Below, piece by piece: positions 7,135-26,267 of a stretch of DNA of 40,582 nt (the first letter of the stretch is position 1; every line of letters starts with the position of its first letter). The notes below the pieces were generated by a model, which had not been told where the DNA came from, ran no database searches, and saw only the letters and a list, made by a program, of their open reading frames with translations. Origin of the DNA: Stramenopiles sp. TOSAG23-3 (lineage: Eukaryota); assembly GCA_900128585.1 (NCBI GenBank), contig LT642181.1:1-40582 (forward strand), in the 5' to 3' direction. Made by a program: the position numbers and the translations under genes.

Positions 7135-7980
7135 ATGTTGTCCGTTCGTACCACTGTTAGCGTTAGTGCTTTTCTGTTGGTTGTTGTTTTCGCAATCAGT
7201 AGCGGAAGTGCAAACCAAATAAGAACGGCCACGCAAGCGCAAACACATACACAGGCACCTACACAAGCTCCGACACAAAAACCTACACAAGCACCTACAC
7301 AAGCACCTACACAAGCTCCGACACAAGCTCCGACACAAGCACCGACACAAGCACCTACACGGCCGCCACGGCCAGCGCCAGCGCCACGGCCAGCGCCAGC
7401 GCCACGGCCAGCGCCAGCGCCACAGTACAAACTGGAGAACCAGCTTCCAAGCGATACATGCTGGGCTCCATTTAGTAATGCTTGTACGTGCCCGGCATTT
7501 AAAAGGAAGGTCGTCTTTAAAATAAAATCTGAAACGCGTCTTGCAAAAGAGCAAATTAAGTATTCGCACGACAACAGAGAAAATACCCCCCTCACGAGGT
7601 GGGTCAAGAATTCCGTAGTGGAAGAGAGGTCCAAGAATAAATTTTCTCTTGTGTATAGTTGCAGCTGCTGCCGCCATAGTTACGATGAAGTGAACAATCC
7701 TTTGTGTTACTACAAATGCGGTCACTCGCTCAGTACCCAGCCGCCTCTTGGCAGTCGAAGGGTACCCTTTGTTGTTAATAAACATATGACACTTACCGCC
7801 ACAGCCAGAACAAATACAAAGGCACCAACCCTAATTTTTTGTAATATCCACAATGTAAGAAGCAAAAAATTTGGGGACGTTATGTTGTCTTCTGTTGCAA
7901 ATCCACAGTACGTTGTGTACGATGTAGAGTCGAAGGGCAACAGACGGCGCAGGCTGCTTACTAAATCCCCACCGTGTTGA
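7135..7980 (+). CDS. Secreted Pro/Thr-rich (TQAP, RPAPAP repeat) protein with Cys-containing C-terminal domain
   Basis: Hydrophobic signal peptide, ~10 TQAP units then RPAPAP x3, Cys-rich globular remainder. Confidence 0.75.
   Translation: MLSVRTTVSVSAFLLVVVFAISSGSANQIRTATQAQTHTQAPTQAPTQKPTQAPTQAPTQAPTQAPTQAPTQAPTRPPRPAPAPRPAPAPRPAPAPQYKLENQLPSDTCWAPFSNACTCPAFKRKVVFKIKSETRLAKEQIKYSHDNRENTPLTRWVKNSVVEERSKNKFSLVYSCSCCRHSYDEVNNPLCYYKCGHSLSTQPPLGSRRVPFVVNKHMTLTATARTNTKAPTLIFCNIHNVRSKKFGDVMLSSVANPQYVVYDVESKGNRRRRLLTKSPPC
7230..7421 (+). repeat. Coding tandem repeats: 12-bp (ACACAAGCWCCK) then 18-bp (CGGCCAGCGCCAGCGCCA)
   Basis: Directly visible. Confidence 0.9.
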
Positions 7981-8177
7981 AGGATTTTCAGGCCGGTTGC
8001 AGACCCTTCCCAATTTGTGGCTAAATTAATCAACAACGGCTATAATATTTAATTTTTAATGGTTTAAAAGGTGCTCGTTTTCTGGTGTATTGCTCTATGA
8101 AAGAATTATCGGTTAATGAATTATCTAAATTAACAGCATTTATTTTGTTCAAATTTACTCCTTGCGCCCACAAAAAA

Positions 8178-10343
8178 TCAAACGCAATCGTTTCCATCAA
8201 ATTCACATGATTCAGAGTTACACGAAAAGTCACACTCGCCGTCTCCTAAGTATGAAGCTGAATCACAGTATTTACTGCACAACGGTTCGCAATATGGCAA
8301 ACCCTTTGAGCCTTTTGAACATCCAGGGTTAGCAGACATGTAGACCTGAAACAATTCATCTTCGCCTTTCTTCTTGCCTAAAAATTCCTCTGATGTTTTC
8401 GTGATGTTTGAAATAAGATTATCTCTTGCGTCGAGGTATCTTAATGAGTCAAACTTCGTCAAAAATTCAGGCAGGATCGAAATTCCCATGCGGGCGATCC
8501 CCAAAGATTGAACCGATTGGAACAAACGGTCCACTCCATCTAGAAATTTGTCTGTTTCACGCAGACGATTCTCATTGAGAATCAACGTCCTAATTTTCGG
8601 CAGCTCTTCTGGCCCTAGAGTCTTTGGCAAAAGTGCGCTGTTGTTAGCCAACTCCAAAACAAACACCTCTGGCAACAATATTTCGCCCTCCCCATTGGGA
8701 AGTTGCAGGCCTTTGTTGCTGCTAAGACGAAGAGTGTTTAAAGTTGTATGCTTCCATACACTTGGGTGGACCGTTGATAAGTTATTATAGTCGACCCGCA
8801 ATTGTAGCAGTTTATCCCATTTCTCCACATTTACGTCAAAATCCTTCATTCGGTTGAGCGCCAAATCAAAGTACGTCATTCCGTTCAACTTCTCCATTCC
8901 TTGGGGCAGTTCTTCCAATGGGCCGCTCCGCAACTTGACACTGCGCAATGCCGTCATCCTTACAAAATCCTTGGAAAGTCCATGCAAGTCATGGTCTTCT
9001 GCGTGAAACGTTGCACAATTGCACGCAGGTTCAAACATTTTATTGCAAAATGGTACTTTAACCTGGCACCCTTTTGAAAACCATGAAGTCTTCCCCCCAC
9101 TCGTAAAATTTTGCGACGCTTCGCAGTTTGGTTTTACAAAACACTCGCATTTGTTTTCTAGCTGCCCTACGACTGCGACCTGTACGATCGCGACGGTCAG
9201 CATGGCGACGACGTACACCACACTAAGGATCAACACTCCTAACTTTGCCCGTTTGTTGAAATACACTCCCTGCTTTGACTGTATCAGCTCAGTGTGAGAT
9301 TGCCCAAACACGCTTTGGCGCCTCCGGCCGAAGGCTTTGGAAGCCTTCGTGTCAATGTTGTTGGCAATGTCGTCCGCGCGGTCAATAATATTTTCTTTCA
9401 CCATTTTCTTCAATTTTCCAAACAAGGACATGGATGGGATCGCCACGATCCAACATATCTCCTGGGGCGACAGGCGGATCCCGTACAAGTAGGCCGCCAA
9501 CACCGGCAGGATAAGAAAAATCATATCCACGGCTAGGTCGATTGAAATCTGGTCGTCCCGCTTCTGTTTTGACACGGGCTCGCCTTTTCTTAAGAATTGC
9601 GCCATATTGTACGCGCGATAGGACGATTCTAGGATCAAGATTCCCATCATGATTAAACAAACAAAATGGGGAAAGGAGCACAGGTAAATATATGCCATGT
9701 TGTAGAACGACACATAATTTTCTAAGAATTCAAACAAGTGCAACCGGTAAAGGTAAAATTTTCCATTCAAACCAAAAAGGCCTTTGTAGGCACGATAGGC
9801 TTTCACAAGTGCATTTTTTGGCTTCTTTCGTATTTTATGGCGGCCCCCAGGCTTCCGTTCTCTTTCGTAGAAACGCTTGGCTTTCTTTTTCCAATAACAA
9901 GGGGATACAAACCGGAAGAATGCGCCCAGATAGAAGACAGCGAAGATCATAAACACCCATAGAAACTGTCTATTCCAACGTCTAAATGGGTAGTATCCAT
10001 CGTGTGTAAGTAGAAACAGCACGCCAAAGTGCAGACCAAAACCGGCAAGCAATAATATCATGAACACAACCCCTTTGCATCCAAACAGTCTGCAGCACGT
10101 TAGTTGTTTTTTGAACTCGGCCTCTCTGGCCGATGCATTATGGGACTGTGCGTGCTGGGGCATTGACTCTTCTTCGTCACTACTGCTATCGTCACCACTG
10201 CTAATATCAGGGCCTACTTCCAGGGCTTTGTCTATCATGGGATTGTTTATAAAGTTTGTTAACTCGATAGATTTGACAGAGTTCGGCGACGTGTCCGCCT
10301 TACCCTCCATCGAACGAACAGGGGTGGAGGAAACGTTAGCCAT
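8178..10343 (-). CDS. Multi-pass membrane protein with LRR domain and C-terminal LNR (Notch/Lin-12)-like repeat
   Basis: ~7 hydrophobic segments, Cys cluster, LxxLxLxxN repeats, terminal C…LGDGECDFSCNSESCEFDGNDC; first ATG 10343. Confidence 0.8.
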   Translation of the reverse strand: MANVSSTPVRSMEGKADTSPNSVKSIELTNFINNPMIDKALEVGPDISSGDDSSSDEEESMPQHAQSHNASAREAEFKKQLTCCRLFGCKGVVFMILLLAGFGLHFGVLFLLTHDGYYPFRRWNRQFLWVFMIFAVFYLGAFFRFVSPCYWKKKAKRFYERERKPGGRHKIRKKPKNALVKAYRAYKGLFGLNGKFYLYRLHLFEFLENYVSFYNMAYIYLCSFPHFVCLIMMGILILESSYRAYNMAQFLRKGEPVSKQKRDDQISIDLAVDMIFLILPVLAAYLYGIRLSPQEICWIVAIPSMSLFGKLKKMVKENIIDRADDIANNIDTKASKAFGRRRQSVFGQSHTELIQSKQGVYFNKRAKLGVLILSVVYVVAMLTVAIVQVAVVGQLENKCECFVKPNCEASQNFTSGGKTSWFSKGCQVKVPFCNKMFEPACNCATFHAEDHDLHGLSKDFVRMTALRSVKLRSGPLEELPQGMEKLNGMTYFDLALNRMKDFDVNVEKWDKLLQLRVDYNNLSTVHPSVWKHTTLNTLRLSSNKGLQLPNGEGEILLPEVFVLELANNSALLPKTLGPEELPKIRTLILNENRLRETDKFLDGVDRLFQSVQSLGIARMGISILPEFLTKFDSLRYLDARDNLISNITKTSEEFLGKKKGEDELFQVYMSANPGCSKGSKGLPYCEPLCSKYCDSASYLGDGECDFSCNSESCEFDGNDCV

Positions 10344-11436
10344 GGTCCTTGTTTCATACAATACACGAACAATTGTTTATGGATTTCTTAATTGGGCGTG
10401 TCTATAGAATGTCCTACAAGTGTTTTTTGCGGGCTATCTTCTAAATTGATTGTTCTGTCGTATCTATAATATGATTAACACGGTCGACGATCCATTATTA
10501 TCCAATAATCAATAAATAATAATTATTTATTTCTTCATCTGCAACCAGAGTATTATAAATATCTAACAAAACAACAACAACAACAACAACAAAACAACCT
10601 CAATGTTGAAGAGACCACCCGCACAGCAGTGCTTTATCATTATAACATCTACTTTGTATCTTTTTTTCATTAAGTATATCTCACATGCTGTCCACACGTC
10701 TTTCTACTCCGTCCCTCGACTGCATCCCCTACGAGGTATGATGGATACCGGATAAACTGATTTGAACTGTATAATTTAAATAGGAAGTTGGATCGATAAT
10801 ATTATAATCTAATATAAATTACAAGTACAAGTATTCGTCTAAAAAAATACCAGTTTTTAAAATTTTATTATTCATTTAAAAATAATTATAATAACTATAG
10901 ACTACAATTATATGTACTTTTAATTAATAGAAACATCTATTTAAATTTTATTTTTAAATCCCTCCTGTCTCCTGTCTCCTGTGGAAGAAGTATGTAATAT
11001 AATGTAATACGAAGGGGGTATATAGGAAGGAAGAAGGATCATTAATTATAGTAGGAATAGTGTGGGGGGAGAAGAAGAAAGATGAAGAAGTTGTTGAACT
11101 TCATCATTCTTCTTCTTCTTTCTTTCTTTCTTCTTCAACAACAATAATAGTAATAGTAATAATTATATTTTGCTGCATATTTTATTATTATTATTATTAT
11201 TTTTTTCTCTTTTCTTTAGAGTTAGTTAGAAGTAGTTAACAATAACGGTTTTATGTAATTTAATTGGTTTGATTAATAATTCCCTGTTTGATTTACACAT
11301 TGAAGAATTTTGAAGCGCACGCAAGTGAACGGTTCTACACGGTCCGTTTGGAATTTGTAATAGGTGTTTGTTTTCAAATTGGTGCAGCATCCGTTAGTCG
11401 GTCGTCTTGTACAACTCCAGCGGTGGTTAAGTAGGT

Positions 11437-13842
11437 ATGGCTTTCCAACGCTTTCTTGCGGTGGCACTGGCCGTTGCGGTCGTCTGCAGCAGTGACGTTC
11501 GGGCAGCGAAGAATATGAACCAAGGGGGAGTTCCGTACGAAATATCCAACGGTCCTGGTTCGACAGAACACTGGAAAGGAACCCCAGGAAAGTACTCCAC
11601 GAATTTTATGGAGAATGTAGACGGAAAGGTGGAGTACTTCGACGTGTACGGCGAGGTCAAAACCGTTTACTCCCAAGTCTACTGGACGCGGAACGCGCCG
11701 ATTGATCTTCCACCGGAGCTAGTCGCCCGGTTTAAGGGCAAAGTCATGGCCATTACCGGGTATGAAGTCGACCAAGTAACGCACAAGGGCCCCCAGCCCG
11801 GCTCGACAACAACAAAAGACCAGCTCGGGGGATTCAGCTGCTACCCAAGTTGCGACGATAGCGTCGACAAAAGTGTTCCAATTTACCACGCCTACAACCA
11901 CCACTACTTCTCGTGGCTGATCGGAGAAGACGCAGAAATGTACCAGAGAAAGAGCAGGGTGCCGAACCCTACGATGACAGCGTTTCGGGCAAAAAATAGC
12001 ACGGACCACAAGTTCCCCGTATCCATTGTCTACAAAGAGAACCCGGGGGGAGAGTTCAGGAAATCATACCATGGGTATCCCTCGGGCTACGCCCAACTTC
12101 TCCACAGCCCGACGCAATGGATCGTAGAGCCCATGCAAGTGGACACCCACAACCGTGAGTACGACATCAACAACGATACGGTAGGGTACAAAGAATGGTT
12201 CTTGCCGAAGCAGTTCACGGCGAACAACATGACCGATCTGCACAGCGGAATGTCGCCTTTAATCGAATGCCCTTGTACGGACAGGATTACAAAATCAAAA
12301 ACTGAATTGCCCGCTTTCGCCACCAGCGGGACGTGCGGGGACAAACAGATCAAGGACGAGAAAGACTGCAAGAAAGTTGCGGCCGGTGCTGGGATTGATT
12401 TTGGTGCCGTCGCGGTCATCAGTGACCCGTCCAAGCCAAGCGGCTGCTTTGTTGTTCCTTCAGAAAGTAACCGGGGGCACCAGTACAAAGTGTTCTTTAA
12501 CAGTGCGAAAGGGCCTGCTGCAACCTGCGGGAAGGATGGCGTTCCTGTCGCTCTCGTCGGAAAAGCGAACCTTGGAAATCTGACGACGTTGGCAATCACG
12601 CACGATGGCTTTGCCCCAGGTAACAACGTCAGTATAACCATTTCTGGCCCCGAAGGGTCATGGTTTGGTGTAGGATTTGACGCGAAACAAATGGCGGACG
12701 AACCGTACGCCTTGATCATCGACGGGAAGGGAAAGGTCACTGAAAGAAAGCTAGGGTCCCACGCACCGGGAACGCTGTTAAAGACTCAAGTGTCAGTTGA
12801 AGCAAACACTGTGGCCAATGGCATTCGAACGGTTGTTCTCGTTCGGCCGGTGCTAGGAATGGAGTACCTTCGTGAACCCGGAAACCTCAATGTAATCACT
12901 GCGATTGGAAATACAGTCGATTTGGCTTACCACAAAGCACGCACCGGGGCAATGATTTCGTTGCTCCCGAAGACGTCGCAAGCTTGCATTTGTGAGCCGA
13001 GCGTGGCTGCGTTCCTTACGTACATGGGATCTGAAAAGAATAGTTTCGGGTACGACTGCAAGGCAGAGCCACGCTCGGACATGCGCGAAAAGGGCGACGG
13101 GACCCAAAGGGACGGAATTCCAAATGCCGCGTGCGATGTGAAAACGTACCACGGGGGTTTGCAGTGCTGCAAGCATAAGTTTTTACTGACGGACAAGGAC
13201 CAAGAAAGTTTGGTCCCGAAGGACAAGGAGGACGTGTACTTTTTGAAATGGAGATATTACTTTCAAGAGTACAAGCCCGAACCAACCCCGTCCCACAAAC
13301 ATTTGCACCATTGGGTTTTCTTGATAGACGACGCAGTGAACGATTACGAAGAGGACAACCTGCCTTCCCATTATGGTATTGACATGGGCACGGGTGTTGG
13401 AAAGATTACCGCGCACTTGACAGTGAGGGACATGGGCCTGGAAGATATCGCTGGTGCCATGGAAGACAACGGGCTGCCAGACTACCCCATCCCCTTCTAC
13501 GCAAACACCACGATCAAGCCGCTAGTAATGACGCCCCATTGCCACGCCCCCAGTTGCATTCGAGAAGAGCTGTGGAACGCCGATACTGGCGAGATTCTTT
13601 GCAACATGACAGCTGCTTATGGTAACAAGCGGTACGGCAACCTTAACTCTGTCTTCAACGAAGCAAACTACATAACCATTTTACCGTGCATTTTTGGAGA
13701 GCAGGCGGGGCTCCAATACCCATTTGTCCTCTCGCAAGACACAAATTTAACGGCGATTAAGTACTTCAACAACACTTGGCGCCATCTTGGGCAGATGGCG
13801 CAATGGACCGGTATGATGGTGTACGACACGGACCCTTACTAG
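11437..13842 (+). CDS. Secreted SURNod19/copper-monooxygenase-like protein with internal DOMON domain
   Basis: Signal peptide; VPIYHAYNHHY, PHCH and HLGQM motifs; WFGVGFDAKQM…YHKAR DOMON signature. Confidence 0.65.
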   Translation: MAFQRFLAVALAVAVVCSSDVRAAKNMNQGGVPYEISNGPGSTEHWKGTPGKYSTNFMENVDGKVEYFDVYGEVKTVYSQVYWTRNAPIDLPPELVARFKGKVMAITGYEVDQVTHKGPQPGSTTTKDQLGGFSCYPSCDDSVDKSVPIYHAYNHHYFSWLIGEDAEMYQRKSRVPNPTMTAFRAKNSTDHKFPVSIVYKENPGGEFRKSYHGYPSGYAQLLHSPTQWIVEPMQVDTHNREYDINNDTVGYKEWFLPKQFTANNMTDLHSGMSPLIECPCTDRITKSKTELPAFATSGTCGDKQIKDEKDCKKVAAGAGIDFGAVAVISDPSKPSGCFVVPSESNRGHQYKVFFNSAKGPAATCGKDGVPVALVGKANLGNLTTLAITHDGFAPGNNVSITISGPEGSWFGVGFDAKQMADEPYALIIDGKGKVTERKLGSHAPGTLLKTQVSVEANTVANGIRTVVLVRPVLGMEYLREPGNLNVITAIGNTVDLAYHKARTGAMISLLPKTSQACICEPSVAAFLTYMGSEKNSFGYDCKAEPRSDMREKGDGTQRDGIPNAACDVKTYHGGLQCCKHKFLLTDKDQESLVPKDKEDVYFLKWRYYFQEYKPEPTPSHKHLHHWVFLIDDAVNDYEEDNLPSHYGIDMGTGVGKITAHLTVRDMGLEDIAGAMEDNGLPDYPIPFYANTTIKPLVMTPHCHAPSCIREELWNADTGEILCNMTAAYGNKRYGNLNSVFNEANYITILPCIFGEQAGLQYPFVLSQDTNLTAIKYFNNTWRHLGQMAQWTGMMVYDTDPY

Positions 13843-19086: not shown

Positions 19087-20175
19087 TCAAAGAAACATAT
19101 TTGCAATTGTCCGCCTTCCATATTTGGTCAGCTTGTGTATGCCGTCATGGTGCTCGTACATGGTTGCTTTCGGGGTGTTGATTTTGAGTTCGTACAGATA
19201 ATTTCTTTTCTGGGCCTTTCGGACACACTCAGCAATGCAGAATTGGTAGTTCAGTATCCTGATGAAGTCCTCCCGGGCCAGGTCGTCCTTTTCTGGAAAG
19301 ACCCCAGGTTCGATTTCGTTGGCAGTGCTTCCGCCAAACGTTCCGGACCATGTCCGGGACGACGTTCGCTGGGACGTCCGCGACGTCGTCCGCTGGGACG
19401 ACCGCGACGTCGATCGCTGGGACCTGGACGGCGGTTGCTTGCATAAAATATGCAGTCCCCTAATCATGGCTGATAAATCGTCGTAGTCGACTGTCGTATC
19501 AATTCCAGTACTCAGGTTTCCAACGTGTTTGGATGTAAATTTAAAGAGGCTGGACTCGGAGTTGGAGGCACGCAAATGCCTTGTGCTGGCCAACATTACA
19601 TTGTGCTTTTGCTCAAATTCCGAGGCCAGGGCCCGTCTCCTTACCATCGTTTTTCTGATCTTTGCCTTCTTCCGCCGCAGGCTCGGCAGTTCTTGAATCC
19701 CGTCCTTTCGCAGCAGGAGGCGTGAATTCTTCATGCTCTTGCCAAAAGCGGCCAGGCTCCCACTTCTATTTCTAAAACAAGTGGGGTCTTTGTCGTAGAC
19801 GGCTTTGTGCCTCACCTGCATGATGGGGGGAGGCTTGTACTCTGTCATGGCGCGCACTTTCTGGGAATTCGACAGGTTGTTTAGGGACGGGTCTGATAGG
19901 GCACCTTTCGGGACATAGAACTTCTTTATTGATGATGTTCGAACCCATCCTTTCTCTCTTACATTTCTTTGTTTCGGTTCTATTTCCGTCATGCTGCAAA
20001 CGCTCCTCATCAATTCCGCCCGCCCTCCATGCCCATACTTTTCGACACGTCTTTCATTCAATAGGGTTGGGCTGATCGGTCTCCTGGCAAGGGGAACAAA
20101 GGGATTGCGGGTCATGAAAGACGGAGCATTTGAAGAGATAGCCGAATCATTCGGTTCGTCCAAAATGATCGTCAT
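19087..20175 (-). CDS. Hypothetical basic protein with short S/T/R repeats
   Basis: Long GC-richer ORF; likely start MTIILDE at 20175; SQRSTSR-like repeats; no family recognised. Confidence 0.65.
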   Translation of the reverse strand: MTIILDEPNDSAISSNAPSFMTRNPFVPLARRPISPTLLNERRVEKYGHGGRAELMRSVCSMTEIEPKQRNVREKGWVRTSSIKKFYVPKGALSDPSLNNLSNSQKVRAMTEYKPPPIMQVRHKAVYDKDPTCFRNRSGSLAAFGKSMKNSRLLLRKDGIQELPSLRRKKAKIRKTMVRRRALASEFEQKHNVMLASTRHLRASNSESSLFKFTSKHVGNLSTGIDTTVDYDDLSAMIRGLHILCKQPPSRSQRSTSRSSQRTTSRTSQRTSSRTWSGTFGGSTANEIEPGVFPEKDDLAREDFIRILNYQFCIAECVRKAQKRNYLYELKINTPKATMYEHHDGIHKLTKYGRRTIANMFL

Positions 20176-20626
20176 TTTTATCGTCACTCTCTCTCTCTCT
20201 CTCTTAATTGACTCAACACACTCAATCTTTAAATCGATCACACGCCCAGGCAAAGATTCAATCGTATACGACTTGCACCACCCTGTACTGAAACTTGCTA
20301 TGTATAAATCGCATGATTGATCTACATATTGACATATATGACATACATACCAAGGTACTGTATAATATGAAAAACAATTCATGCATCATCAGAAGTAATA
20401 ATAATATTAAAAACTTAAAAAAATATAGCTAGAATAATAATAGCTGCTGATAATAAAATATAACCTAACTAAAAAAAATATATAAAAAATAATAATAAAA
20501 AACGGATATTATTTATATTTTTTGTTTGTTTGTTGTTTGATTTTTATGATGATTATGATGATGATGATGGATGATGAAGAAGTACCAGTAGTAGAAAGAA
20601 GAATGTGATTTTTTATTATTATATAT

Positions 20627-20792
20627 TTCTTCTTCCTTCTTCTTCTTTCTTCTTTCTTCTTCTTCTTCTTCTTCTTCTTCTTCTTTCTTCTTTCTTCTTC
20701 TTCTTCTTCTTCTTTCTTCTTCTTCTTTCTTCTTCTTCTTCTTCTTCTTCTTTCTTTCTTCTTCTTCCTCTTCTTTCTTCTTCTTTCTTCTC
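20627..20792. repeat. (TTC)n degenerate microsatellite
   Basis: Directly visible. Confidence 0.9.
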
Positions 20793-21059
20793 ATAAATAC
20801 GAGTATAAGAAGAAGAAGTATTCTACTCAAAACTGAAAAAAAAAAAAGGATGAACATTGAATAGCATTGAATTGTACTTATAGTTGCACTATATTTCTAA
20901 TAGGTATTTTGCTATTTTTTGCAACCTATGGTGTGTCAATGTTATATTTTGCACACTTAACTTCAACATTTCCTATGTGTAACTCTATAAACAACAAGTA
21001 CGAAAAAAACTCAGATTTTCGAGTAAAAAAAGAAAGTCGTCTTGAGAAAAATTGATGAT

Positions 21060-21310
21060 TTGATGAAATTTAAGGACCCACATTTAGACATTATCATATA
21101 ACTCTTTGAAAAGTCAGAAGTTAGTACAAACGCTGCAAACTCATTAAAGAGTTATAAAGGGCAAGCCACCCTCCGCAAGAATAAAAAAATTAAAACCAAG
21201 GACAATGGGATAACACTGCTGTGGAAATCGATTTTGTTGAAATCACAGCAAAACACAATGTTAACGCTAAAGATGACGACGGTGGTACAGGGTTGGTACT
21301 GGAGTGGCCT
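21060..21310 (+). pseudogene. Decayed ankyrin-repeat fragment
   Basis: HLDIII*LFEKSEVSTNAAN and, in a shifted frame, KHNVNAKDDDGGTGL. Confidence 0.45.
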
Positions 21311-21317
21311 TTCTCTT

Positions 21318-21440
21318 TGACAAAGCCAATTATCTTTAGATCCTTCAACGATGGATAATGTAGAGCTATCATTTCTGTCAAGGCCTCCTTTTGCGTAACA
21401 GAAGGTAATTTTACCTTTACTGCCAACTCTCCTGCTGGTC
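21318..21440 (-). mobile_element. PIF/Harbinger-like transposase fragment (segment just before first catalytic Asp)
   Basis: AVKVKLPSVTQKEALTEMIALHYPSLKDLKIIGFV resembles A.I.WP…I..R(H/Y)P.L…FGF(I/V)DG. Confidence 0.55.
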
Positions 21441-21595
21441 GGATTAAAGAAAACTAACTTCTACTTTTCCGATTGCATTAATTCAAAGACGAAAAGTTTC
21501 TAATTTCAAATCTAAACGCGATTTAACAAAGCAGAATGCGTACCGCCCTTTCAATCGACGGTAATCACGGAAAAAGCAATAATTCCTTGCTATGC

Positions 21596-21713
21596 CAACA
21601 GGCAATCAGTGGTTCTCCGTCTCAACAAAGCAAGGTTGGCCAACGCCGAGTCGGACACCAAGCTCCCTTCGGGGACCCTGCGCAACAGGCAATCAGTGGT
21701 TCTCCGTCTCAAC
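21596..21713. repeat. Two identical 31-bp direct repeats (21596-21626, 21683-21713) with 56-bp spacer
   Basis: CAACAGGCAATCAGTGGTTCTCCGTCTCAAC twice. Confidence 0.9.
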
Positions 21714-21714
21714 G

Positions 21715-22160
21715 TTTGCCACCTGCGGGGTGCCGTTGGATTATCTTGTAATACCCCCACTAGAGCATGAAGTCCAAAAATAATTTTTTCACTCACAACA
21801 GATGGTGTCATGGAAAATATTATGCAAAATACATTTTGCTCTTGCGTTGAGTTGAGGTACATGAGGGTTAGACCAACAATATCCTCAATACATGGACATG
21901 TTGATAACCTCTTCCTTTCAACAATGTTTCTTGAAATTCTATCAAGAACTTTCTCATCCTCAATACATGGACATGTTGATAACCTCTTCCTTTCAACAAT
22001 GTTTCTTGAAATTCTATCAAGAACTTTCTCTCTGATAACGGGTGCCACTATTTCACACAGGCTCTTGAAACACCTTACTGTGCACTTTAAGAAGTAAATG
22101 AACGTGTCATTTCTCTCCCCTTCTAAAAGTTTTCTCCATCAGCACCATTTCTGAACATTT
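21715..22160 (-). mobile_element. PIF/Harbinger-like transposase N-terminal/HTH fragment with stop and internal duplication
   Basis: C*WRKLLEGERNDTFIYF…IVGLTLMYLNSTQEQNVFCIIFSMTPSVVSEKIIFGLHALVGVLQDNPTA. Confidence 0.7.
21881..22030. repeat. Perfect 75-bp tandem duplication (21881-21955, 21956-22030)
   Basis: Directly visible; 25 aa EKVLDRISRNIVERKRLSTCPCIED x2 on minus strand. Confidence 0.95.
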
Positions 22161-22164
22161 GAGT

Positions 22165-22667
22165 CAAGGGTTGAGATGCTTGGTTGGCTATTTGGAAAAT
22201 GATGACAAGAGTCGCGTAAAATGGCCAACAGGTCAGGCGTTGGAGGATCTGGAAAAGGATATAAAACGGTTCATTGAATATATTCACCATGACGAAAAGG
22301 TTTTTATTCGAAGATTGAAATGCTATGTACCCAGTGTGGCATGGAAGGTGATTGTGCCAGGCGGACCCCAACGACCACGCGGACCTCAGCGACCACGCGG
22401 ACCCCCTGGACTTCGAAAACGACGGCCTTGAGAGTCCAGTCCCAACTGAGAGTGTAATTTGTAGATGGATGCAAAATCCGAATGCAAACATCCGCCAATA
22501 TTTGGAAGGCCAATGCTAACTATAATGGCTGGCTGCATGGACATTACCGATGCAATTTGTTGGCGTATTCGTTCGATGGTAAAATAATCCATGCAGGATT
22601 AGATTACTTGGGTTCGACACATGATTGTGCCATGACGGAAGATTGCGATTTAATTCCTCTGTTATAA
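22165..22667 (+). mobile_element. PIF/Harbinger-like (DDE_Tnp_4) transposase catalytic-core fragments, interrupted
   Basis: GLRCLVGYLENDDKSRVKWPT then FVDGCKIRMQTSAN…NYNGWLHGHY…LAYSFDGKIIHAGLDYLGSTHD; separated by unrelated collagen-like stretch and stops. Confidence 0.8.
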
Positions 22668-22669
22668 AT

Positions 22670-22806
22670 CTCATAACAATAACCCATTTTGTGCCGTAGT
22701 CTTTCAACGAAAGCTGTTTCTTATATAGGGGTTTTCCCCCGTAGACCAAGTAGTCTGTCCCCTGCCATCCTTTCTTGTCTCTTAAAACTCGGTACCATAT
22801 ATACAA
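22670..22806 (-). pseudogene. Ubiquitin-like domain fragment
   Basis: LRDKKGWQGTDYLVYGGKPLYKKQLSLKDYG parallels ubiquitin IQDKEG…RLIFAGKQLEDGRTLSDY. Confidence 0.5.
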
Positions 22807-23499
22807 TTTGTTTTTCTACTCGGTATACCAATCATCATCAAAACTTTTGTGCGAGCCACGCGAACAACTTCTTTGAATTCTTCGAATTCTAGTGCTCGCG
22901 CATCACGAGCTGGAGCGTGTATACTAACGTTTTCATTGTTTGCTGCCATGAGCAAACATTTTTCGATCTCTCCATTCTTTTTTTCTTGCTTTTTTGTCAA
23001 TGCCAGTCCTATTTAAAGACTTGGAATTGAAATCAAGAAAATCTGTTGCTAACAAACTTTTCAATTTCAATCGTAAACTTTCATTTGCCACCGTACTCTG
23101 CAACACTGGATGCTGTGGGTATTTCTTATCAATAGTATCGTAATGATAAACTACACTAGCATACCAGATTCTTGGTGGTTCTGCTTTTGCAGATGTCGAT
23201 GGGGTGATATCGCTAACAGATTCGTACTTAGTCTGATGGGGGCTGAACTTGTTTCAATGCGAATTGCACAAACGTCTTCAAACGAAGTTGACAACAAAAG
23301 AAGATATTCAGACAAAACAAATTTGAGTTAACGGCATCAGTTCTTTTGGGATAACGTCCGTGTTGTCTGGGGCAGCTTGATACAGCTGTGTAAGCACTTG
23401 CATTAACGACGAAATTTTGTTTTGCAACGTTTCACTTACAAGCCTTGCTTCAGTCTTGGCAACGGAATAGAAGCTTTCCTTTCCGCGGTTTTCACCTTT

Positions 23500-23661
23500 G
23501 GCTTTTTTTACGAAAAATTCTTTTTGCTCGTCAGTAGCCTGTTCCATGAGCTTGTTAAACTTTACCCAATCTTGGTAGGCGGCGTTCTTGTTCATCAAAT
23601 CAGCTTCCGCTTTTCTTTTCTTTTGGTTCTTGTTGAGGTGTTTGCTTTGTTCGAACAACAA
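23500..23661 (-). pseudogene. Possible Harbinger ORF1 (Myb/NAM-associated) C-terminal fragment
   Basis: KKRKAEADLM…KLMEQATDEQKEFFVKK; weak resemblance, no ATG start. Confidence 0.3.
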
Positions 23662-24165
23662 AAATCACATATATCCTTAATACGTTGATTTGTACACTGA
23701 AATAGTGTTGTAATGTTGTGACGCTGTATTATTTCGTTTTGTTTTTAGTTGTTCAAAGCTGCCCAAAAACTAAAACTTTTCATAAATCGATATTTGTCGG
23801 ACTTGTAAGGAAAACAGCCACAAAACAACAAAACGGAATTATTTTTACCAATGCTCTGTCCTGCTTGAAAAAAGTAGTCATTTTTTTTTCTCTTTTTTTT
23901 TTTTCACAGCTTTTTGAGTTATAAATATCACGAATCCATCCATTACCTTGGTAGTTGTAAATAAATAGTGCATTTAATACATTTAATAATATATTCATAT
24001 AGGTAATTATAATAATATTACTATACTAATTTAATATTATTTGTATTTTTTGTGACACAGTATACGATGTCAGTGTAGTATTTGTATGAGATGTTTGTTA
24101 TTTTTTTGATCTTAATTATTATTATTTATTGTGAAAAACCTTTAAAATATATTTTTACCTAAAAT

Positions 24166-24834
24166 TTAAAATACCATATCATGTGGGGCATCGGCTTTGG
24201 ACAAAGAGAAACGTGCGTGCAAGTAATCTTTTAAGCCTTCAACCTTCTGGGCGGCGGCAATGATTGGGCCGTCGACCTTGGTTTGCAGGGCTTTCCTGTC
24301 GTCCGAAATGCTAACTTCTGGGATTTTTCCGGCGGCCAAGAATTCGGCCTCGGCATCAGCGGCGGCGCCGGAGCTAGCACGTTTGAAGAATTTATCTTCC
24401 ACGTTGGCAACTGTACTGACATCAACATCCACGGTGGTGGAGGTGGCAATGACATAGGCTTGGTTCACGCGACGCAATGGAACACCGTTGAATTTGAATG
24501 GGCCAGTGACGAGCAAAAGTCCAGATGGCAATTGCTTCAAGAAAACAACACGCTTGCCACGGTGGCGGCCGGCCAACAAGATAAGTACACTTCCCTGTTT
24601 AATGGAGCCACGAAGCTTGGCTGACTTTGGGGTGTGCTTGCGAGTCTTGCGGATGGTGGCGTCATCGGAGGCGTAGAATTTGCCGACTTTCTTCTCTGCT
24701 GGGGCAGCCTTGGCTTTTGGGGCCTGCTTCTTGAACCTAAGTTTACCGTTCTTGAATTTGCGGCCGGCAACTTGCGACTTCGACAGACGGTTGATACCGT
24801 TGTGAAACTGGGATTGCTTTTGGATCTTTGGCAT
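24166..24834 (-). CDS. RPL6: 60S ribosomal protein L6 (eL6)
   Basis: LRGSIKQGSVLILLAGRHRGKRVVFLKQLPSGLLLVTGPFKFNGVPLRRVNQAYVIATST; ends PHDMVF. Confidence 0.97.
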   Translation of the reverse strand: MPKIQKQSQFHNGINRLSKSQVAGRKFKNGKLRFKKQAPKAKAAPAEKKVGKFYASDDATIRKTRKHTPKSAKLRGSIKQGSVLILLAGRHRGKRVVFLKQLPSGLLLVTGPFKFNGVPLRRVNQAYVIATSTTVDVDVSTVANVEDKFFKRASSGAAADAEAEFLAAGKIPEVSISDDRKALQTKVDGPIIAAAQKVEGLKDYLHARFSLSKADAPHDMVF

Positions 24835-26267
24835 AGTGATTCTTTTCGAGTAGATGTATTAATATATATGTATGTATATTCTCAAAAACTGTTTGGTATT
24901 TTTTTAGTACCGATTGGACGTTGATCGTTTAGAAATATTTACCTCCAAACGCACATACCTTCTTTCATAAAACCATGGTCACTACAATAAAATACACAAT
25001 AGAAAAACGTTTGATCAAAATAAAGAATATCGATCTCCCAACGAAGGAAGAAAGATGCCAACAGAACGCTCTTTCCCCTCCCTGTGTTTATATATAACAA
25101 CAACAAAAAGAAGAGAAGGATAAATACTAGATAATAACACAATAATACATCGGACAGCATAGAATATCATGGATTTAATTGCCTGTCCACCAATTTAATG
25201 TTGGTGTTAAAATTATAAATATATTCATACTATTTGTATGTTAAATGAATTGTTGTAACTCCCGTTTCTGGTTTGTTTTTCCGAAAGCATCAAAAACTCA
25301 TCTGTTTTGTTACATAGGAATACAATAGAATAACAAACATTAATATAGGCATAGTATCCAATAGATGAATGGTGAGTAATGCTTCTCGTTCAATGTTGTT
25401 GATCGATTCTATTGTTTTGCTATTATTTACCTATTAAATAAATGTTGTAAATGATAGATACCATCATTACCATATAGTTCATATGCTGTCTTTATATTAA
25501 TCCTTACGTTACATCTATACACCATAGATTATTGTGTTAATCCTACGAACGCTGAATTTTATAATAAAAATAAGGTTCATCCGTTCCAAAGGATTCATAT
25601 TTTTTCATTGTCCTGTTATCATTATAAATCATTGAAAACAAATTTAGTTAAAACCCAAACTATTTCAAACAAAATATAACTATTTCCTGAATTGTTATGT
25701 TAATTTAGTTTCTCTCCTTTCTTTCTTATTGGCACGTGGTGTTGAAATAATAGTTCAATATGTTTCCATTATGAATAGACATACTTTGTGTTCAACTTTT
25801 GTTGTTAATTAGGGAGGGACTGGACGAAAGAAAGTAACACGCCAGAAGAAAGGTTGGTGTCTATAAGATTAAGGATACGTATATTTTAAATATTCCCCCC
25901 CCCCCCTCCTCCTTCCTCCTTCCTCCGTCCTTCTTGATTCTTGAAAGATTTGTTGTTGTTTTTTTGTTATTGTTTTGTTGATTGACCCACATTCTTCATA
26001 TTTTCTTCATTCATTCATCAACCAACAACAAATCAATAATAAAATATTCTTCATTCAAAATAAATATAATATTATTTAAATTATTATTATAGAAACTATA
26101 TAAAAAATCAACATTTAAAGGTGCTTAAGTTTTGTTCTATTGTTTAAATTATATACCGTTTACTTTTTTTGTTCATTGCTTTTCAGTGCACTGGAGAAGA
26201 TACATACGCATGCCTACATACATACATACATACACCCGCACGCACGCACGTACAGTTGTGTGTTAGG

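What the first reader, a model, noticed from the sequence alone, without database searches (positions are those of the whole stretch)
21000..23700. Patchwork locus of short fragments from many different mobile/foreign genes in both orientations: candidate transposon 'trap'/memory (small-RNA cluster-like) locus
Seen: 2.7 kb of coding-like composition with no intact ORF, between AT-rich spacers. It is made of abutting 60-450 bp pieces: ankyrin-like (+), Harbinger-like (-), repeat-flanked piece (-), Harbinger HTH (-), Harbinger (+), collagen-like (+), Harbinger DDE core (+), ubiquitin-like (-), Crypton-like (-), NAM-associated-like (-). I found no terminal inverted repeats. Established: piRNA clusters and siRNA loci in other eukaryotes consist of truncated TE fragments in mixed orientation. 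Inference: this may be a locus that serially captures invader fragments to guide silencing, or a fragment-capturing non-autonomous element; ordinary single-element decay does not explain the scrambling.
Basis: partly seen in the sequence, partly recalled or inferred. Interest (0 to 1): 0.8.

Follow-up and report, generated by a model that had tools for sequence, protein, structure and literature searches.

The report
Scrambled graveyard of broken transposon genes
A 2.6-kb gene-free stretch in a marine single-celled eukaryote is a mosaic of broken transposon genes (Harbinger-type and probably Crypton-type) and other gene scraps, most likely made by error-prone DNA repair and not shown to be a defence "memory" locus.

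Summary

- **Harbinger, plus strand:** three pieces (22140-22254, 22458-22634, 23161-23305) are collinear parts of one transposase. An intact relative with 309-bp terminal inverted repeats lies on metagenome contig L001.
- **Harbinger, minus strand:** two pieces (22138-21713, 21417-21319) come from a much more divergent Harbinger transposase.
- **"Ubiquitin-like" and "Crypton-like":** these are two collinear parts of one fragment (23160-22630, minus strand). It matches the C-terminal third of a 654-aa protein, P0019, whose motifs resemble a tyrosine recombinase. It replaces 18 codons of the plus-strand transposase.
- **"NAM-like":** this is a 3'-truncated fragment of an unnamed coiled-coil gene family.
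- **"Ankyrin-like":** weak support only.
- **"Collagen-like":** an 18-nt minisatellite.
- **Ends and repeats:** there are no terminal repeats and no long inverted repeats.
- **Independent support:** other runs confirm the junctions from 22039 to 23321. They also show other junctions between the same pieces in related cells.

Best reading: dead Harbinger insertions remodelled by break repair with template switching, deletions and tandem duplications. A small-RNA "trap" is untested and unlikely.

The parts
20825..21105 (.). Block 'a': AT-rich non-coding block with sharp homology edges. It also lies 199 nt left of the intact Harbinger in L001.
   Evidence: blastn to L001 8543-8859; edges read; 269 of 280 aligned nt identical. 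Contiguous with 21106-21318 in run X3 (record 9).
21224..21301 (+). Ankyrin-repeat-like scrap, about 26 aa, weak.
   Evidence: phmmer against PDB: 30 matches, nearly all named ankyrin or DARPin, best E 2e-4, query aa 11-36 of the 21194-21358 frame. No Pfam hit at E<=1.
21319..21417 (-). Harbinger transposase fragment 1b (matches aa 152-184 of the L001 transposase, ending at the ...GFV motif just before the first catalytic Asp).
   Evidence: tblastn 48% identity over 33 aa, E 0.005; tblastx. Run X3 diverges exactly at 21318.
21418..21595 (.). Filler piece of unknown origin.
   Evidence: In metagenome run X7 a 625-nt contig carries 21411-21595 (3 differences) between unrelated sequence on both sides.
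21596..21713 (.). GC-rich piece (59% in 21600-21699) with exact 31-nt direct repeats 87 nt apart (21596-21626, 21683-21713).
   Evidence: No Rfam match. Fold z-scores -0.33 and -1.34.
21713..22138 (-). Harbinger transposase fragment 1a (N-terminal helix-turn-helix region, aa 44-157 of the L001 transposase numbering). It carries an exact 75-bp tandem duplication (21881-21955 / 21956-22030).
   Evidence: HMMER against 1.84 billion representatives: 8 hits at E<=1e-3. Of the 7 scanned in Pfam, P0014, P0016 and P0017 are 337-374 aa with DDE_Tnp_4. tblastn (28% identity to the L001 transposase, E 2e-12). Duplication; absent in X3, in an X17 contig and in P0011.
22140..22254 (+). Harbinger copy 2, piece d (aa 128-165 of the L001 transposase).
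   Evidence: 95.7% nt identity to L001 9835-9949; 36 of 38 aa identical. The head-to-head junction at 22139/22140 is bridged by X7 record 23, X3 record 10 and protein P0011.
22255..22457 (+). 203-nt segment replacing 51 nt (17 codons) of the transposase.
   Evidence: Junctions read against L001; repeat. Copy number differs in X7, and other continuations appear at 22359 and 22437 in X7 and X17.
22458..22634 (+). Harbinger copy 2, piece g (aa 183-241; first catalytic Asp region FVDG...GSTHD).
   Evidence: Pfam DDE_Tnp_4 E 5e-6, 26.7 bits against a 24.8-bit cut-off; 89% nt and 54 of 59 aa identity to L001. Junctions bridged by X7 record 24, X17 record 5 and X4 record 19.
22630..23160 (-). Crypton-like fragment: the C-terminal third of a P0019-type protein (aa 414-481 and 590-610), with the middle shortened and diverged. 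It replaces transposase aa 242-259.
   Evidence: tblastn with P0019: 62% over 68 aa (E 3e-16) and 52% over 21 aa (E 0.005), collinear on the minus strand. P0008 is 100% identical over 71 aa; P0009 matches both ends. Absent from L001 between 10181 and 10231.
23161..23305 (+). Harbinger copy 2, C-terminal piece (aa 260-320). The second catalytic Asp motif GDSAF reads GGSAF, and short deletions remove the RQGVEWGM motif with the catalytic Glu.
   Evidence: The junction at 23160/23161 is bridged by X4 record 21 and X3 record 11.
23326..23670 (-). Piece k: the 5' part of an unnamed coiled-coil gene family, truncated after ...KELMP.
   Evidence: 7 homologues. P0004 aa 4-93 match at 60%, E 2e-26. P0004, P0006 and P0007 continue for 66-104 residues beyond the truncation point. 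No Pfam family above cut-off.

Best explanation
The locus is a non-functional remnant of PIF/Harbinger transposon insertions in the spacer downstream of the rpL6 gene. It was later remodelled by error-prone repair.

**What is there**
- One Harbinger copy (plus strand) belongs to a family whose intact form is seen on contig L001: 3.1 kb, 309-bp terminal inverted repeats, a 366-aa transposase and a second ORF.
- In the window this copy has lost its ends, its first 127 codons, its last ~46 codons and its second ORF.
- It carries two replacement insertions. One is a 203-nt segment with a minisatellite. The other is a ~530-nt internal fragment of a Crypton-like gene in antisense orientation.
- It also has microhomology-flanked deletions that destroy the catalytic site.
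- Two fragments of a divergent Harbinger transposase abut it head-to-head, separated and flanked by further short filler pieces.
- A truncated coiled-coil gene fragment lies on its other side.

**How it arose (inferred, not shown)**
Double-strand breaks in or near the element, from excision attempts or stalled replication, were repaired by synthesis with repeated template switching (the "gap-filling" or FoSTeS-type model described for Pack-TIR elements). This copied internal scraps of other elements and genes in either orientation. Replication slippage then added the tandem duplications.

The locus has no demonstrated function.
For: **Shown**
- Collinear mapping of 22141-22254, 22458-22634 and 23162-23305 (+) to aa 128-165, 183-241 and 260-320 of the intact L001 transposase, at 95%, 92% and 62% aa identity (the last includes a deletion).
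- The L001 element is intact: transposase ORF with DDE_Tnp_4 (E 1e-10), and 309-nt inverted repeats 98% complementary.
- Minus-strand fragments map to aa 44-157 and 152-184 at only 28% and 48% identity. They overlap copy 2 in transposase coordinates, so this is not a simple inversion of one copy.
- The Crypton-like fragment is bounded exactly where L001 homology stops and resumes (22633/22640 and 23161) and replaces 49 nt of L001.
- A more intact, 100% identical relative of that fragment (P0008, 71 aa) exists elsewhere and continues upstream as P0019 does.
- Two deletions, 24 nt between ATGCG repeats and 8 nt between AATT repeats, remove the Glu motif. GDSAF reads GGSAF.
- There are an exact 75-bp tandem duplication and an 87-nt partial one.
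- Pieces occur in other contexts in other runs. X7 carries 21411-21595 between unrelated flanks. X7 and X17 show the same alternative junction at 23420, matching P0001 and P0002. X3 shows joints 21318|22140, 22250|22458, 22335|23310 and 23198>21486.
- Junctions from 22039 to 23321 are bridged by contigs of runs other than the likely source.

**From the literature (passages read)**
- Gap-filling with template switching under microhomology creates single-copy chimeric TIR elements (PMC8277862).
Against: - The repair mechanism is inferred from anatomy only. Donor DNA is not in hand, so microhomology could be judged at only one junction (a 4-nt CCAT overlap of the two homologies at 22630-22633) and is 0-1 nt at the other.
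- The left third (junctions at 21318/19, 21417/18, 21595/96) is not bridged by any run other than the likely source. Both that source and X3 appear, judging only from their small size, to be amplified single-cell libraries, which can contain chimeras.
- Piece g is more diverged from L001 (19 of 177 nt) than pieces d and Ct and block 'a' (4-5%). Copy 2 may therefore itself be a mosaic or gene-converted.
- Block 'a' lies beside Harbinger sequence in both L001 and the window although the DNA to its left is unrelated. This is unexplained.
- Contigs from an RNA library match parts of the locus at 99-100% identity, so it is not shown to be silent.
Confidence: 0.7

Rival explanations
1. Transposon trap or small-RNA source locus. 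The mosaic is kept because transcripts across it are processed into small RNAs that silence Harbinger and Crypton elements, as piRNA clusters do in animals.
For: - Fragments of at least two or three transposon families lie in both orientations within 2.6 kb of an otherwise gene-dense window.
- Contigs from a metatranscriptome library match 21956-22080, 22213-22359, 22418-22595 and 23420-23776. One of them (22418-22595) spans a junction specific to this arrangement.
- The arrangement differs between related cells.
Against: - No nucleotide-level inverted repeats beyond 15 nt, so no hairpin precursor.
- Only about three transposon families are represented, and non-transposon scraps are present too.
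- The differences seen between organisms A and B are permutations, deletions and duplications of the same pieces, not gains of new invader fragments.
- Two of the RNA contigs run into sequence unlike the window, so they come from other variants or donors. DNA carry-over in the RNA library is not excluded.
- No small-RNA data and no genome were available to check for RNAi genes.
Confidence: 0.05
2. Artefact. The scrambling, or much of it, is a chimera made by whole-genome amplification of a single cell or by assembly, not the arrangement in the cell.
For: - The only runs holding 98% of the words are two small runs of one sample, which may be the source.
- Junctions at 21318/19, 21417/18, 21595/96 and 23305-23420 are not bridged by any other run. 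X3 and X7 diverge exactly at several of these points.
- Recalled, not checked here: multiple-displacement amplification makes inverted chimeras.
Against: - A marine metagenome (X7) bridges 22039-22359, 22419-22757 and 23420-24024 with 0-2 differences per contig.
- A second sample of the same organism (X4) is identical over 22439-23321.
- X3 bridges 20918-21318, 21956-22189 and 22922-23198.
- Independently predicted proteins P0011, P0001 and P0008 reproduce piece boundaries.
- The order of the k ORF across 23420 is that of the intact family members.
Confidence: 0.1
3. A mobile composite (Pack-TIR-like) non-autonomous element that carries captured fragments and is dispersed in the genome.
For: - A foreign fragment lies inside a Harbinger gene.
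- Pieces are seen in other contexts in other runs.
- A perfect 15-nt inverted pair brackets the locus.
Against: - The inverted pair is poly-A/poly-T low complexity, and no 3-bp duplication flanks it.
- The 309-bp terminal repeats of the related intact element have no match in the window.
- The protein clusters that match the pieces come from 1-5 contigs each.
- No second copy exists in the 40-kb window.
- Copy number in the genome could not be measured because no genome is held.
Confidence: 0.05
4. Piece k is a resident host gene lying downstream of rpL6 on the same strand. The mosaic is what replaced its 3' end, giving a truncated or chimeric transcript with some residual function.
For: - k lies on the same strand as rpL6, downstream of it, with about 500 nt of AT-rich spacer between them.
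- Its 5' part is intact relative to P0004 and P0005.
- RNA-library contigs cover 23420-23776.
- P0006 is 24 of 25 identical over the overlap but continues intact.
Against: - The frame ends 9 codons after the truncation point.
- In X7 and X17 the transcribed variant is truncated at a different point, 23420.
- It is unknown whether P0006 comes from this locus.
Confidence: 0.1

Closest known systems
PIF/Harbinger DNA transposons (DDE_Tnp_4 transposase plus a second DNA-binding protein, terminal inverted repeats)
   Same: - Three plus-strand pieces are 92-95% (two pieces) and 62% identical in protein to an intact element's transposase on L001. Two minus-strand pieces are distant relatives.
- One piece passes the Pfam DDE_Tnp_4 cut-off.
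- The need for a transposase plus a second DNA-binding protein is stated in the abstract of bioRxiv 10.64898/2026.05.26.728016, seen only in the search listing.
   Different: No terminal repeats, no second ORF, no start of the gene, a destroyed catalytic site, and foreign DNA inside the gene. It is a dead remnant, not an element.
Single-copy Pack-TIR chimeras made by transposition-independent gap filling with template switching (Tan et al. 2021, PMC8277862; passages read)
   Same: A TIR-type transposon whose internal sequence is replaced by a copy of unrelated DNA. The replacement is short relative to the element, and microhomology is possible at one junction.
   Different: Here the filler is itself transposon-derived (Crypton-like and another Harbinger). 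There are several fillers in both orientations, the terminal repeats are gone, and the junctions differ between related cells.
Crypton tyrosine-recombinase transposons (Kojima & Jurka 2011, PMC3212892; abstract and passages read)
   Same: - The fragment's full-length relative P0019 (654 aa) has residues in the order and spacing expected of a tyrosine recombinase: AGR at 192-194, SKG at 220-222, HSWR at 304-307, GH at 331-332, YY at 342-343. This comparison is by eye and from recall.
- A language-model search gave GCR1_C-bearing clusters as nearest (score 0.87, weak).
- Cryptons occur in stramenopiles, fungi and animals, and carry either GCR1_C or another conserved C-terminal region.
   Different: - No profile or structure search recognises P0019: Pfam, PHROGs and NCBIfam gave nothing meaningful, and PDB gave a single chance-level hit (E 1.5).
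- The window holds only the part downstream of the putative catalytic domain.
piRNA / siRNA clusters of animals and other eukaryotes
   Same: Truncated transposon fragments in mixed orientation at one locus.
   Different: About 100 times smaller than typical clusters, few families, no small-RNA evidence, and no inverted repeats.

Membership tests
PIF/Harbinger transposon | DDE_Tnp_4 transposase homology | tested here: met
   Pfam PF13359, E 5e-6, 26.7 bits against a 24.8-bit cut-off, for 22458-22667(+). Collinear tblastn to the L001 transposase and to P0014, P0016 and P0017.
PIF/Harbinger transposon | Intact transposase ORF with the catalytic D-D-E | tested here: not met
   No ORF longer than 182 aa. 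The second Asp motif reads GGSAF, the Glu motif is deleted, and aa 1-127 and 321-366 are missing.
PIF/Harbinger transposon | Terminal inverted repeats | tested here: not met
   Only a 15-nt poly-A/T pair. The L001 309-bp repeats have no match in the window.
PIF/Harbinger transposon | 3-bp target-site duplication (recalled feature) | not testable with these tools
   No element ends can be defined in the window. In L001 the contig stops 7 nt beyond the right repeat.
PIF/Harbinger transposon | Second ORF for a DNA-binding protein | tested here: not met
   tblastn of the L001 second ORF (10634-11299, minus strand) against the window gave only chance-level matches, E 8.6-20. Profile comparison of the k family with that ORF: probability 0.4%, E 0.15.
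Crypton (tyrosine-recombinase transposon) | Tyrosine recombinase domain with the R-H-R-Y tetrad | tested here: inconclusive
   The window fragment covers only P0019 aa 414-610, outside the candidate domain. P0019 has suitably spaced R, K, HxxR, H and Y motifs but no profile hit. The single-sequence structure model was unusable, pLDDT 36.
Crypton (tyrosine-recombinase transposon) | GCR1_C or another conserved C-terminal DNA-binding region | tested here: inconclusive
   The Atlas nearest clusters carry GCR1_C in 33-37% of members, score 0.87, below the 0.9 guide value. Pfam shows no GCR1_C hit at E<=1 for P0008, P0009, P0010 or P0019.
piRNA/siRNA-cluster-like locus | Transposon fragments of several families in mixed orientation | tested here: met
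   Two or three Harbinger fragments (- and +) and one Crypton-like fragment (-).
piRNA/siRNA-cluster-like locus | Small RNAs derived from the locus | not testable with these tools
   No small-RNA data. Only assembled contigs of one metatranscriptome were laid on the locus.
piRNA/siRNA-cluster-like locus | Source of double-stranded RNA (long inverted repeats) | tested here: not met
   Self-blastn with word size 7 finds no inverted match beyond 15 nt.
Pack-TIR / gap-filling chimera | Foreign DNA replacing internal transposon sequence | tested here: met
   22634/22641-23160 replaces L001 10182-10230. 22255-22457 replaces L001 9950-10000.
Pack-TIR / gap-filling chimera | Microhomology at the filler junctions | tested here: inconclusive
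   A 4-nt overlap of the two homologies at 22630-22633, and 0-1 nt at 23160/61.
Pack-TIR / gap-filling chimera | Retained terminal inverted repeats | tested here: not met
Ankyrin repeat | Match to ankyrin repeat profiles | tested here: inconclusive
   Pfam: none at E<=1. PDB phmmer: 30 matches to ankyrin or DARPin chains, best E 2e-4, over about 26 residues, less than one full repeat pair.

The most novel reading that the evidence does not exclude
The locus is a recurrently breaking spot that keeps copying scraps of active Harbinger and Crypton elements, and of genes, into one transcribed place. Its transcripts feed an RNA-silencing pathway. This would make it a miniature transposon "trap" in a compact marine protist genome, with different fillings in different strains.
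Probability: 0.04. Interest if true: 0.75.

Novelty: new member of a known kind. Interest (0 to 1): 0.27.

Why it matters
It mostly matters as a correction. What looked like ten unrelated captured fragments is two or three dead Harbinger transposase remnants, one Crypton-like scrap, one truncated gene and a few short fillers.

Modest points of interest:
- It documents recently active Harbinger elements, and probably Crypton elements, in an uncultured marine eukaryote lineage. An intact Harbinger sits on L001, and a 100% identical, more complete Crypton-like relative (P0008) exists.
- It gives a clean example of one transposon's internal fragment copied into another's gene.
- It shows that related cells and natural populations carry different junctions between the same pieces, that is, a small rearrangement hot spot.

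If small RNAs were found to arise here the locus would become much more interesting, but nothing yet points that way.

Tried and rejected
- **Whole genome:** none is held for this window. Donors and copy numbers could not be sought.
- **Earlier findings of the scan:** nothing for this genome, for look-alike stretches or for P0019.
- **Structure of P0019:** the single-sequence AlphaFold2 model had mean pLDDT 36, so no fold search was run.
- **Profile searches of P0019:** Pfam, PHROGs, NCBIfam and PDB gave nothing meaningful. A scan of viral contigs found no relative.
- **Atlas search with P0004:** no usable hit.
- **k family against the L001 second ORF:** probability 0.4%. The idea that k is the Harbinger accessory gene was dropped.
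- **Rfam on 20000-25000:** only three sub-threshold matches, E 0.33-0.93.
- **RNA folds of the repeat-flanked piece:** not unusual.
- **An early idea dropped:** I first read RIWYASVVYHY as the recombinase Tyr motif. In P0019 that segment lies about 70 residues after the candidate Tyr, so I dropped it.
- **Simple inversion of one Harbinger copy:** rejected, because the two orientations overlap in transposase coordinates and share only 28-48% identity.
- **Read depth:** X7 depth over the pieces (about 1-5) resembles that over the flanks, but the tool warns that this is no copy number, so I draw nothing from it. Stretches without cover in X4, X7 and X17 (including rpL6 in X17) are likewise no evidence.
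- **Arrangement in organism B:** the exact linear order could not be resolved from short contigs.

Full report
**Setting.** The 40.6-kb window is gene-dense eukaryotic DNA. Long, mostly uninterrupted ORFs of 50-60% GC are separated by AT-rich spacers. Neighbours include JmjC/cupin, rhodanese and SET-domain genes. Ribosomal protein L6e lies at 24166-24858(-), just right of the finding. No whole genome is held.

The 2.7-kb stretch is held almost completely (98% of sampled words) only by two small DNA runs of one sample, which may be its source. Fourteen other DNA runs hold 29-48% of its words. One is a second organism "B", one is a second sample of organism "A", and twelve are marine metagenomes from eight studies. 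Four RNA runs hold 6-19%.

- The two 2.7-kb windows centred on the locus have the shortest longest open frames of 29 tested: 182 and 179 aa, against 204-732 aa elsewhere.
- GC is 33-45% per 100-bp bin, with peaks of 55-59%. This lies between spacer (12-31%) and host genes.
- Of ten frames scanned in Pfam, only 22458-22667(+) passes a curated cut-off (DDE_Tnp_4, E 5e-6). Two have noise-level hits and seven have none.

**Minus-strand Harbinger fragments.** HMMER of the 182-aa frame 22138-21590(-) against 1.84 billion representatives gave 8 hits at E<=1e-3.
- One, P0011, is a 99% identical variant.
- Seven of the eight were scanned in Pfam (P0013 was not). Three of them (P0014, P0016, P0017) are 337-374-aa proteins with a full DDE_Tnp_4 domain. 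The match lies in their N-terminal region just upstream of that domain.
- This frame contains an exact 75-bp tandem duplication. The duplication is absent in run X3, in an RNA-library contig and in P0011.

**The key comparison.** A scan of metagenome contigs with the DDE piece returned L001, 12.1 kb of a 17.6-kb contig.
- L001 carries an intact Harbinger element. Its 309-nt terminal inverted repeats are 98% complementary (9059-9367 / 11832-12140). It has a 395-codon open frame (9365-10552, +) holding a 366-aa transposase with DDE_Tnp_4 (E 1e-10), and a 221-codon open frame (10634-11299) on the other strand.
- The window matches L001 in four same-strand blocks: 20825-21105, 22140-22254 (95.7%), 22458-22640 (89%) and 23161-23305.
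- In protein terms, 22141-22254, 22458-22634 and 23162-23305 are aa 128-165, 183-241 and 260-320 of that transposase.

Copy 2 is dead.
- Its first 127 and last ~46 codons, its second ORF and its terminal repeats are absent.
- GDSAF reads GGSAF.
- Two deletions remove the RQGVEWGM motif: 24 nt between ATGCG repeats and 8 nt between AATT repeats.
- Over 405 aligned nt, dN/dS against L001 is 0.13. Most of the divergence therefore accrued while both were under selection as working transposases.

**Relation of the two orientations.** The minus-strand pieces map to aa 44-157 (22138-21713, 28% identity) and aa 152-184 (21417-21319, 48% identity).
- They overlap copy 2 in transposase coordinates and are far more divergent.
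- They are therefore fragments of another Harbinger lineage lying head-to-head with copy 2, not an inversion of it.
- Between them lie 295 nt of other DNA. One part (21411-21595) sits between unrelated flanks in a contig of metagenome X7. The other is a GC-rich part with exact 31-nt direct repeats 87 nt apart.

**The "ubiquitin-like" and "Crypton-like" pieces.**
- Searching the 22933-23253(-) frame found P0008 (100% identical over 71 aa) and P0009.
- A profile search among longer proteins found one hit, P0019 (654 aa, E 3e-27, among 8000 candidates scored).
- Its aa 414-481 and 590-610 match 23160-22957 and 22692-22630 collinearly on the minus strand.
- The two pieces are therefore one fragment of one gene, with the middle shortened and diverged. 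The "ubiquitin" label has no support (0 PDB matches at E<=10).
- The fragment sits exactly where L001 homology stops (22633/22640) and resumes (23161). It replaces 49 nt of the transposase.
- P0019 has R, K, HxxR, H and Y motifs at 194, 221, 304-307, 332 and 342/343. From recall, I judge this order and spacing typical of tyrosine recombinases.
- An Atlas search for P0009 gave GCR1_C-bearing clusters at a weak score of 0.87. GCR1_C is the C-terminal domain of fungal-type Cryptons, and stramenopile Cryptons have a different conserved C-terminus (PMC3212892, passages read).
- No profile search recognises P0019, and a single-sequence structure model failed.
- "Crypton-like" is therefore plausible but not proven.

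**Other pieces.**
Its members P0004, P0006 and P0007 continue for 66-104 residues beyond the point (...KELMP) where the window's copy ends. There are no Pfam hits. It is not detectably related to the L001 second ORF.
- This piece lies downstream of rpL6 on the same strand, so it could be a resident gene whose 3' end was lost.
- The "collagen-like" piece is an 18-nt x 2.7 minisatellite inside a 203-nt segment that replaces 17 transposase codons. Its copy number and continuation vary between runs.
- The "ankyrin-like" piece matches ankyrin or DARPin chains in PDB over about 26 residues (best E 2e-4, 30 matches) but no Pfam model.

**Is it an artefact?** Contigs of runs other than the likely source bridge these junctions with at least 31 nt on each side:
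- 21105/06: X3
- 22139/40: X7 and X3
- 22254/55: X7
- 22457/58: X7 and X17
- 22633/34: X7, X3 and X4
- 23160/61: X4 and X3

Not bridged are 21318/19, 21417/18, 21595/96 and 23305-23420. The k frame's order across 23420 does agree with intact family members. A chimera in the left third cannot be excluded.

**Variation.**
- Run X3 (organism B, about 99% identical in the flanks) holds all the pieces but with other joints: 21318|22140, 22250|22458, 22335|23310, and 23198 followed by 21486. It also has a longer middle of the Crypton-like fragment (423 against 230 nt).
- P0011 reproduces the 22335|23310-type joint.
- X7 and X17 share another joint at 23420, which matches P0001 and P0002.
- These differences are permutations, deletions and duplications of the same pieces. 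No gains of new foreign fragments were seen.

**Function.**
- There are no inverted repeats longer than 15 nt and no similarity to the rest of the window.
- There is no Rfam match and no unusual RNA fold in the repeat-flanked piece.
- Metatranscriptome contigs match four stretches at 99-100% identity. One spans the window-specific junction at 22457/58. Others run into unlike sequence, and DNA carry-over is possible.
- No small-RNA data could be examined.

**Conclusion.** The best-supported reading (about 0.7) is a dead Harbinger insertion site remodelled by break repair with template switching, plus slippage duplications and microhomology deletions. This is the route described for single-copy chimeric TIR elements (PMC8277862, passages read). 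The mechanism is inferred from anatomy, not shown. A silencing "trap" remains possible but has no positive evidence (about 0.05).

**Unexplained.**
- Block 'a' (20825-21105) is 96% identical to L001 and sharply bounded. It lies next to Harbinger sequence in both places, although the DNA to its left is unrelated.
- Piece g is more diverged from L001 (10.7%) than the other shared pieces (4-5%).

Noticed in passing
L001 9059-12140: An apparently intact PIF/Harbinger element on a metagenome contig. It has 309-nt terminal inverted repeats (98% complementary), a 395-codon open frame holding a 366-aa DDE_Tnp_4 transposase (9365-10552, +) and a 221-codon second open frame (10634-11299, -) with no Pfam family. 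The contig ends 7 nt past the right repeat. An eIF5A-like gene lies to the left (7467-7982, -).
   Followed up: partly
window 20825-21105 and L001 8543-8859: A sharply bounded AT-rich block, 96% identical between the window and L001. It lies beside Harbinger sequence in both, with unrelated DNA to its left. L001 and run X3 carry a 34-nt stretch here that the window lacks.
   Followed up: partly
window 22302: Runs X3, X7 and X17 all carry one extra A after 22302 compared with the window. With it, the frame of 22140-22302 would run into the frame of the DDE core at 22458, with one stop remaining.
   Followed up: no
window 21411-21595 (run X7, record 22): In a marine metagenome this 185-nt piece sits in a 625-nt contig between unrelated sequences. 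The sequence following it contains telomere-like CCCTAA-type repeats.
   Followed up: no
window 20627-20791: A (TTC)n microsatellite of about 51 units in the spacer left of the locus. Contigs of other runs break here.
   Followed up: no
window 19087-20385 (-): A 432-aa open frame with no Pfam family and a serine/arginine/threonine-rich repeat. It is the left neighbour gene of the locus.
   Followed up: no
P0019 (654 aa, from a 2662-nt contig): A full-length protein with motif spacing like a tyrosine recombinase that no Pfam, PHROGs, NCBIfam or PDB sequence search recognises. It is a candidate member of a poorly described Crypton-like lineage in marine eukaryotes.
   Followed up: partly
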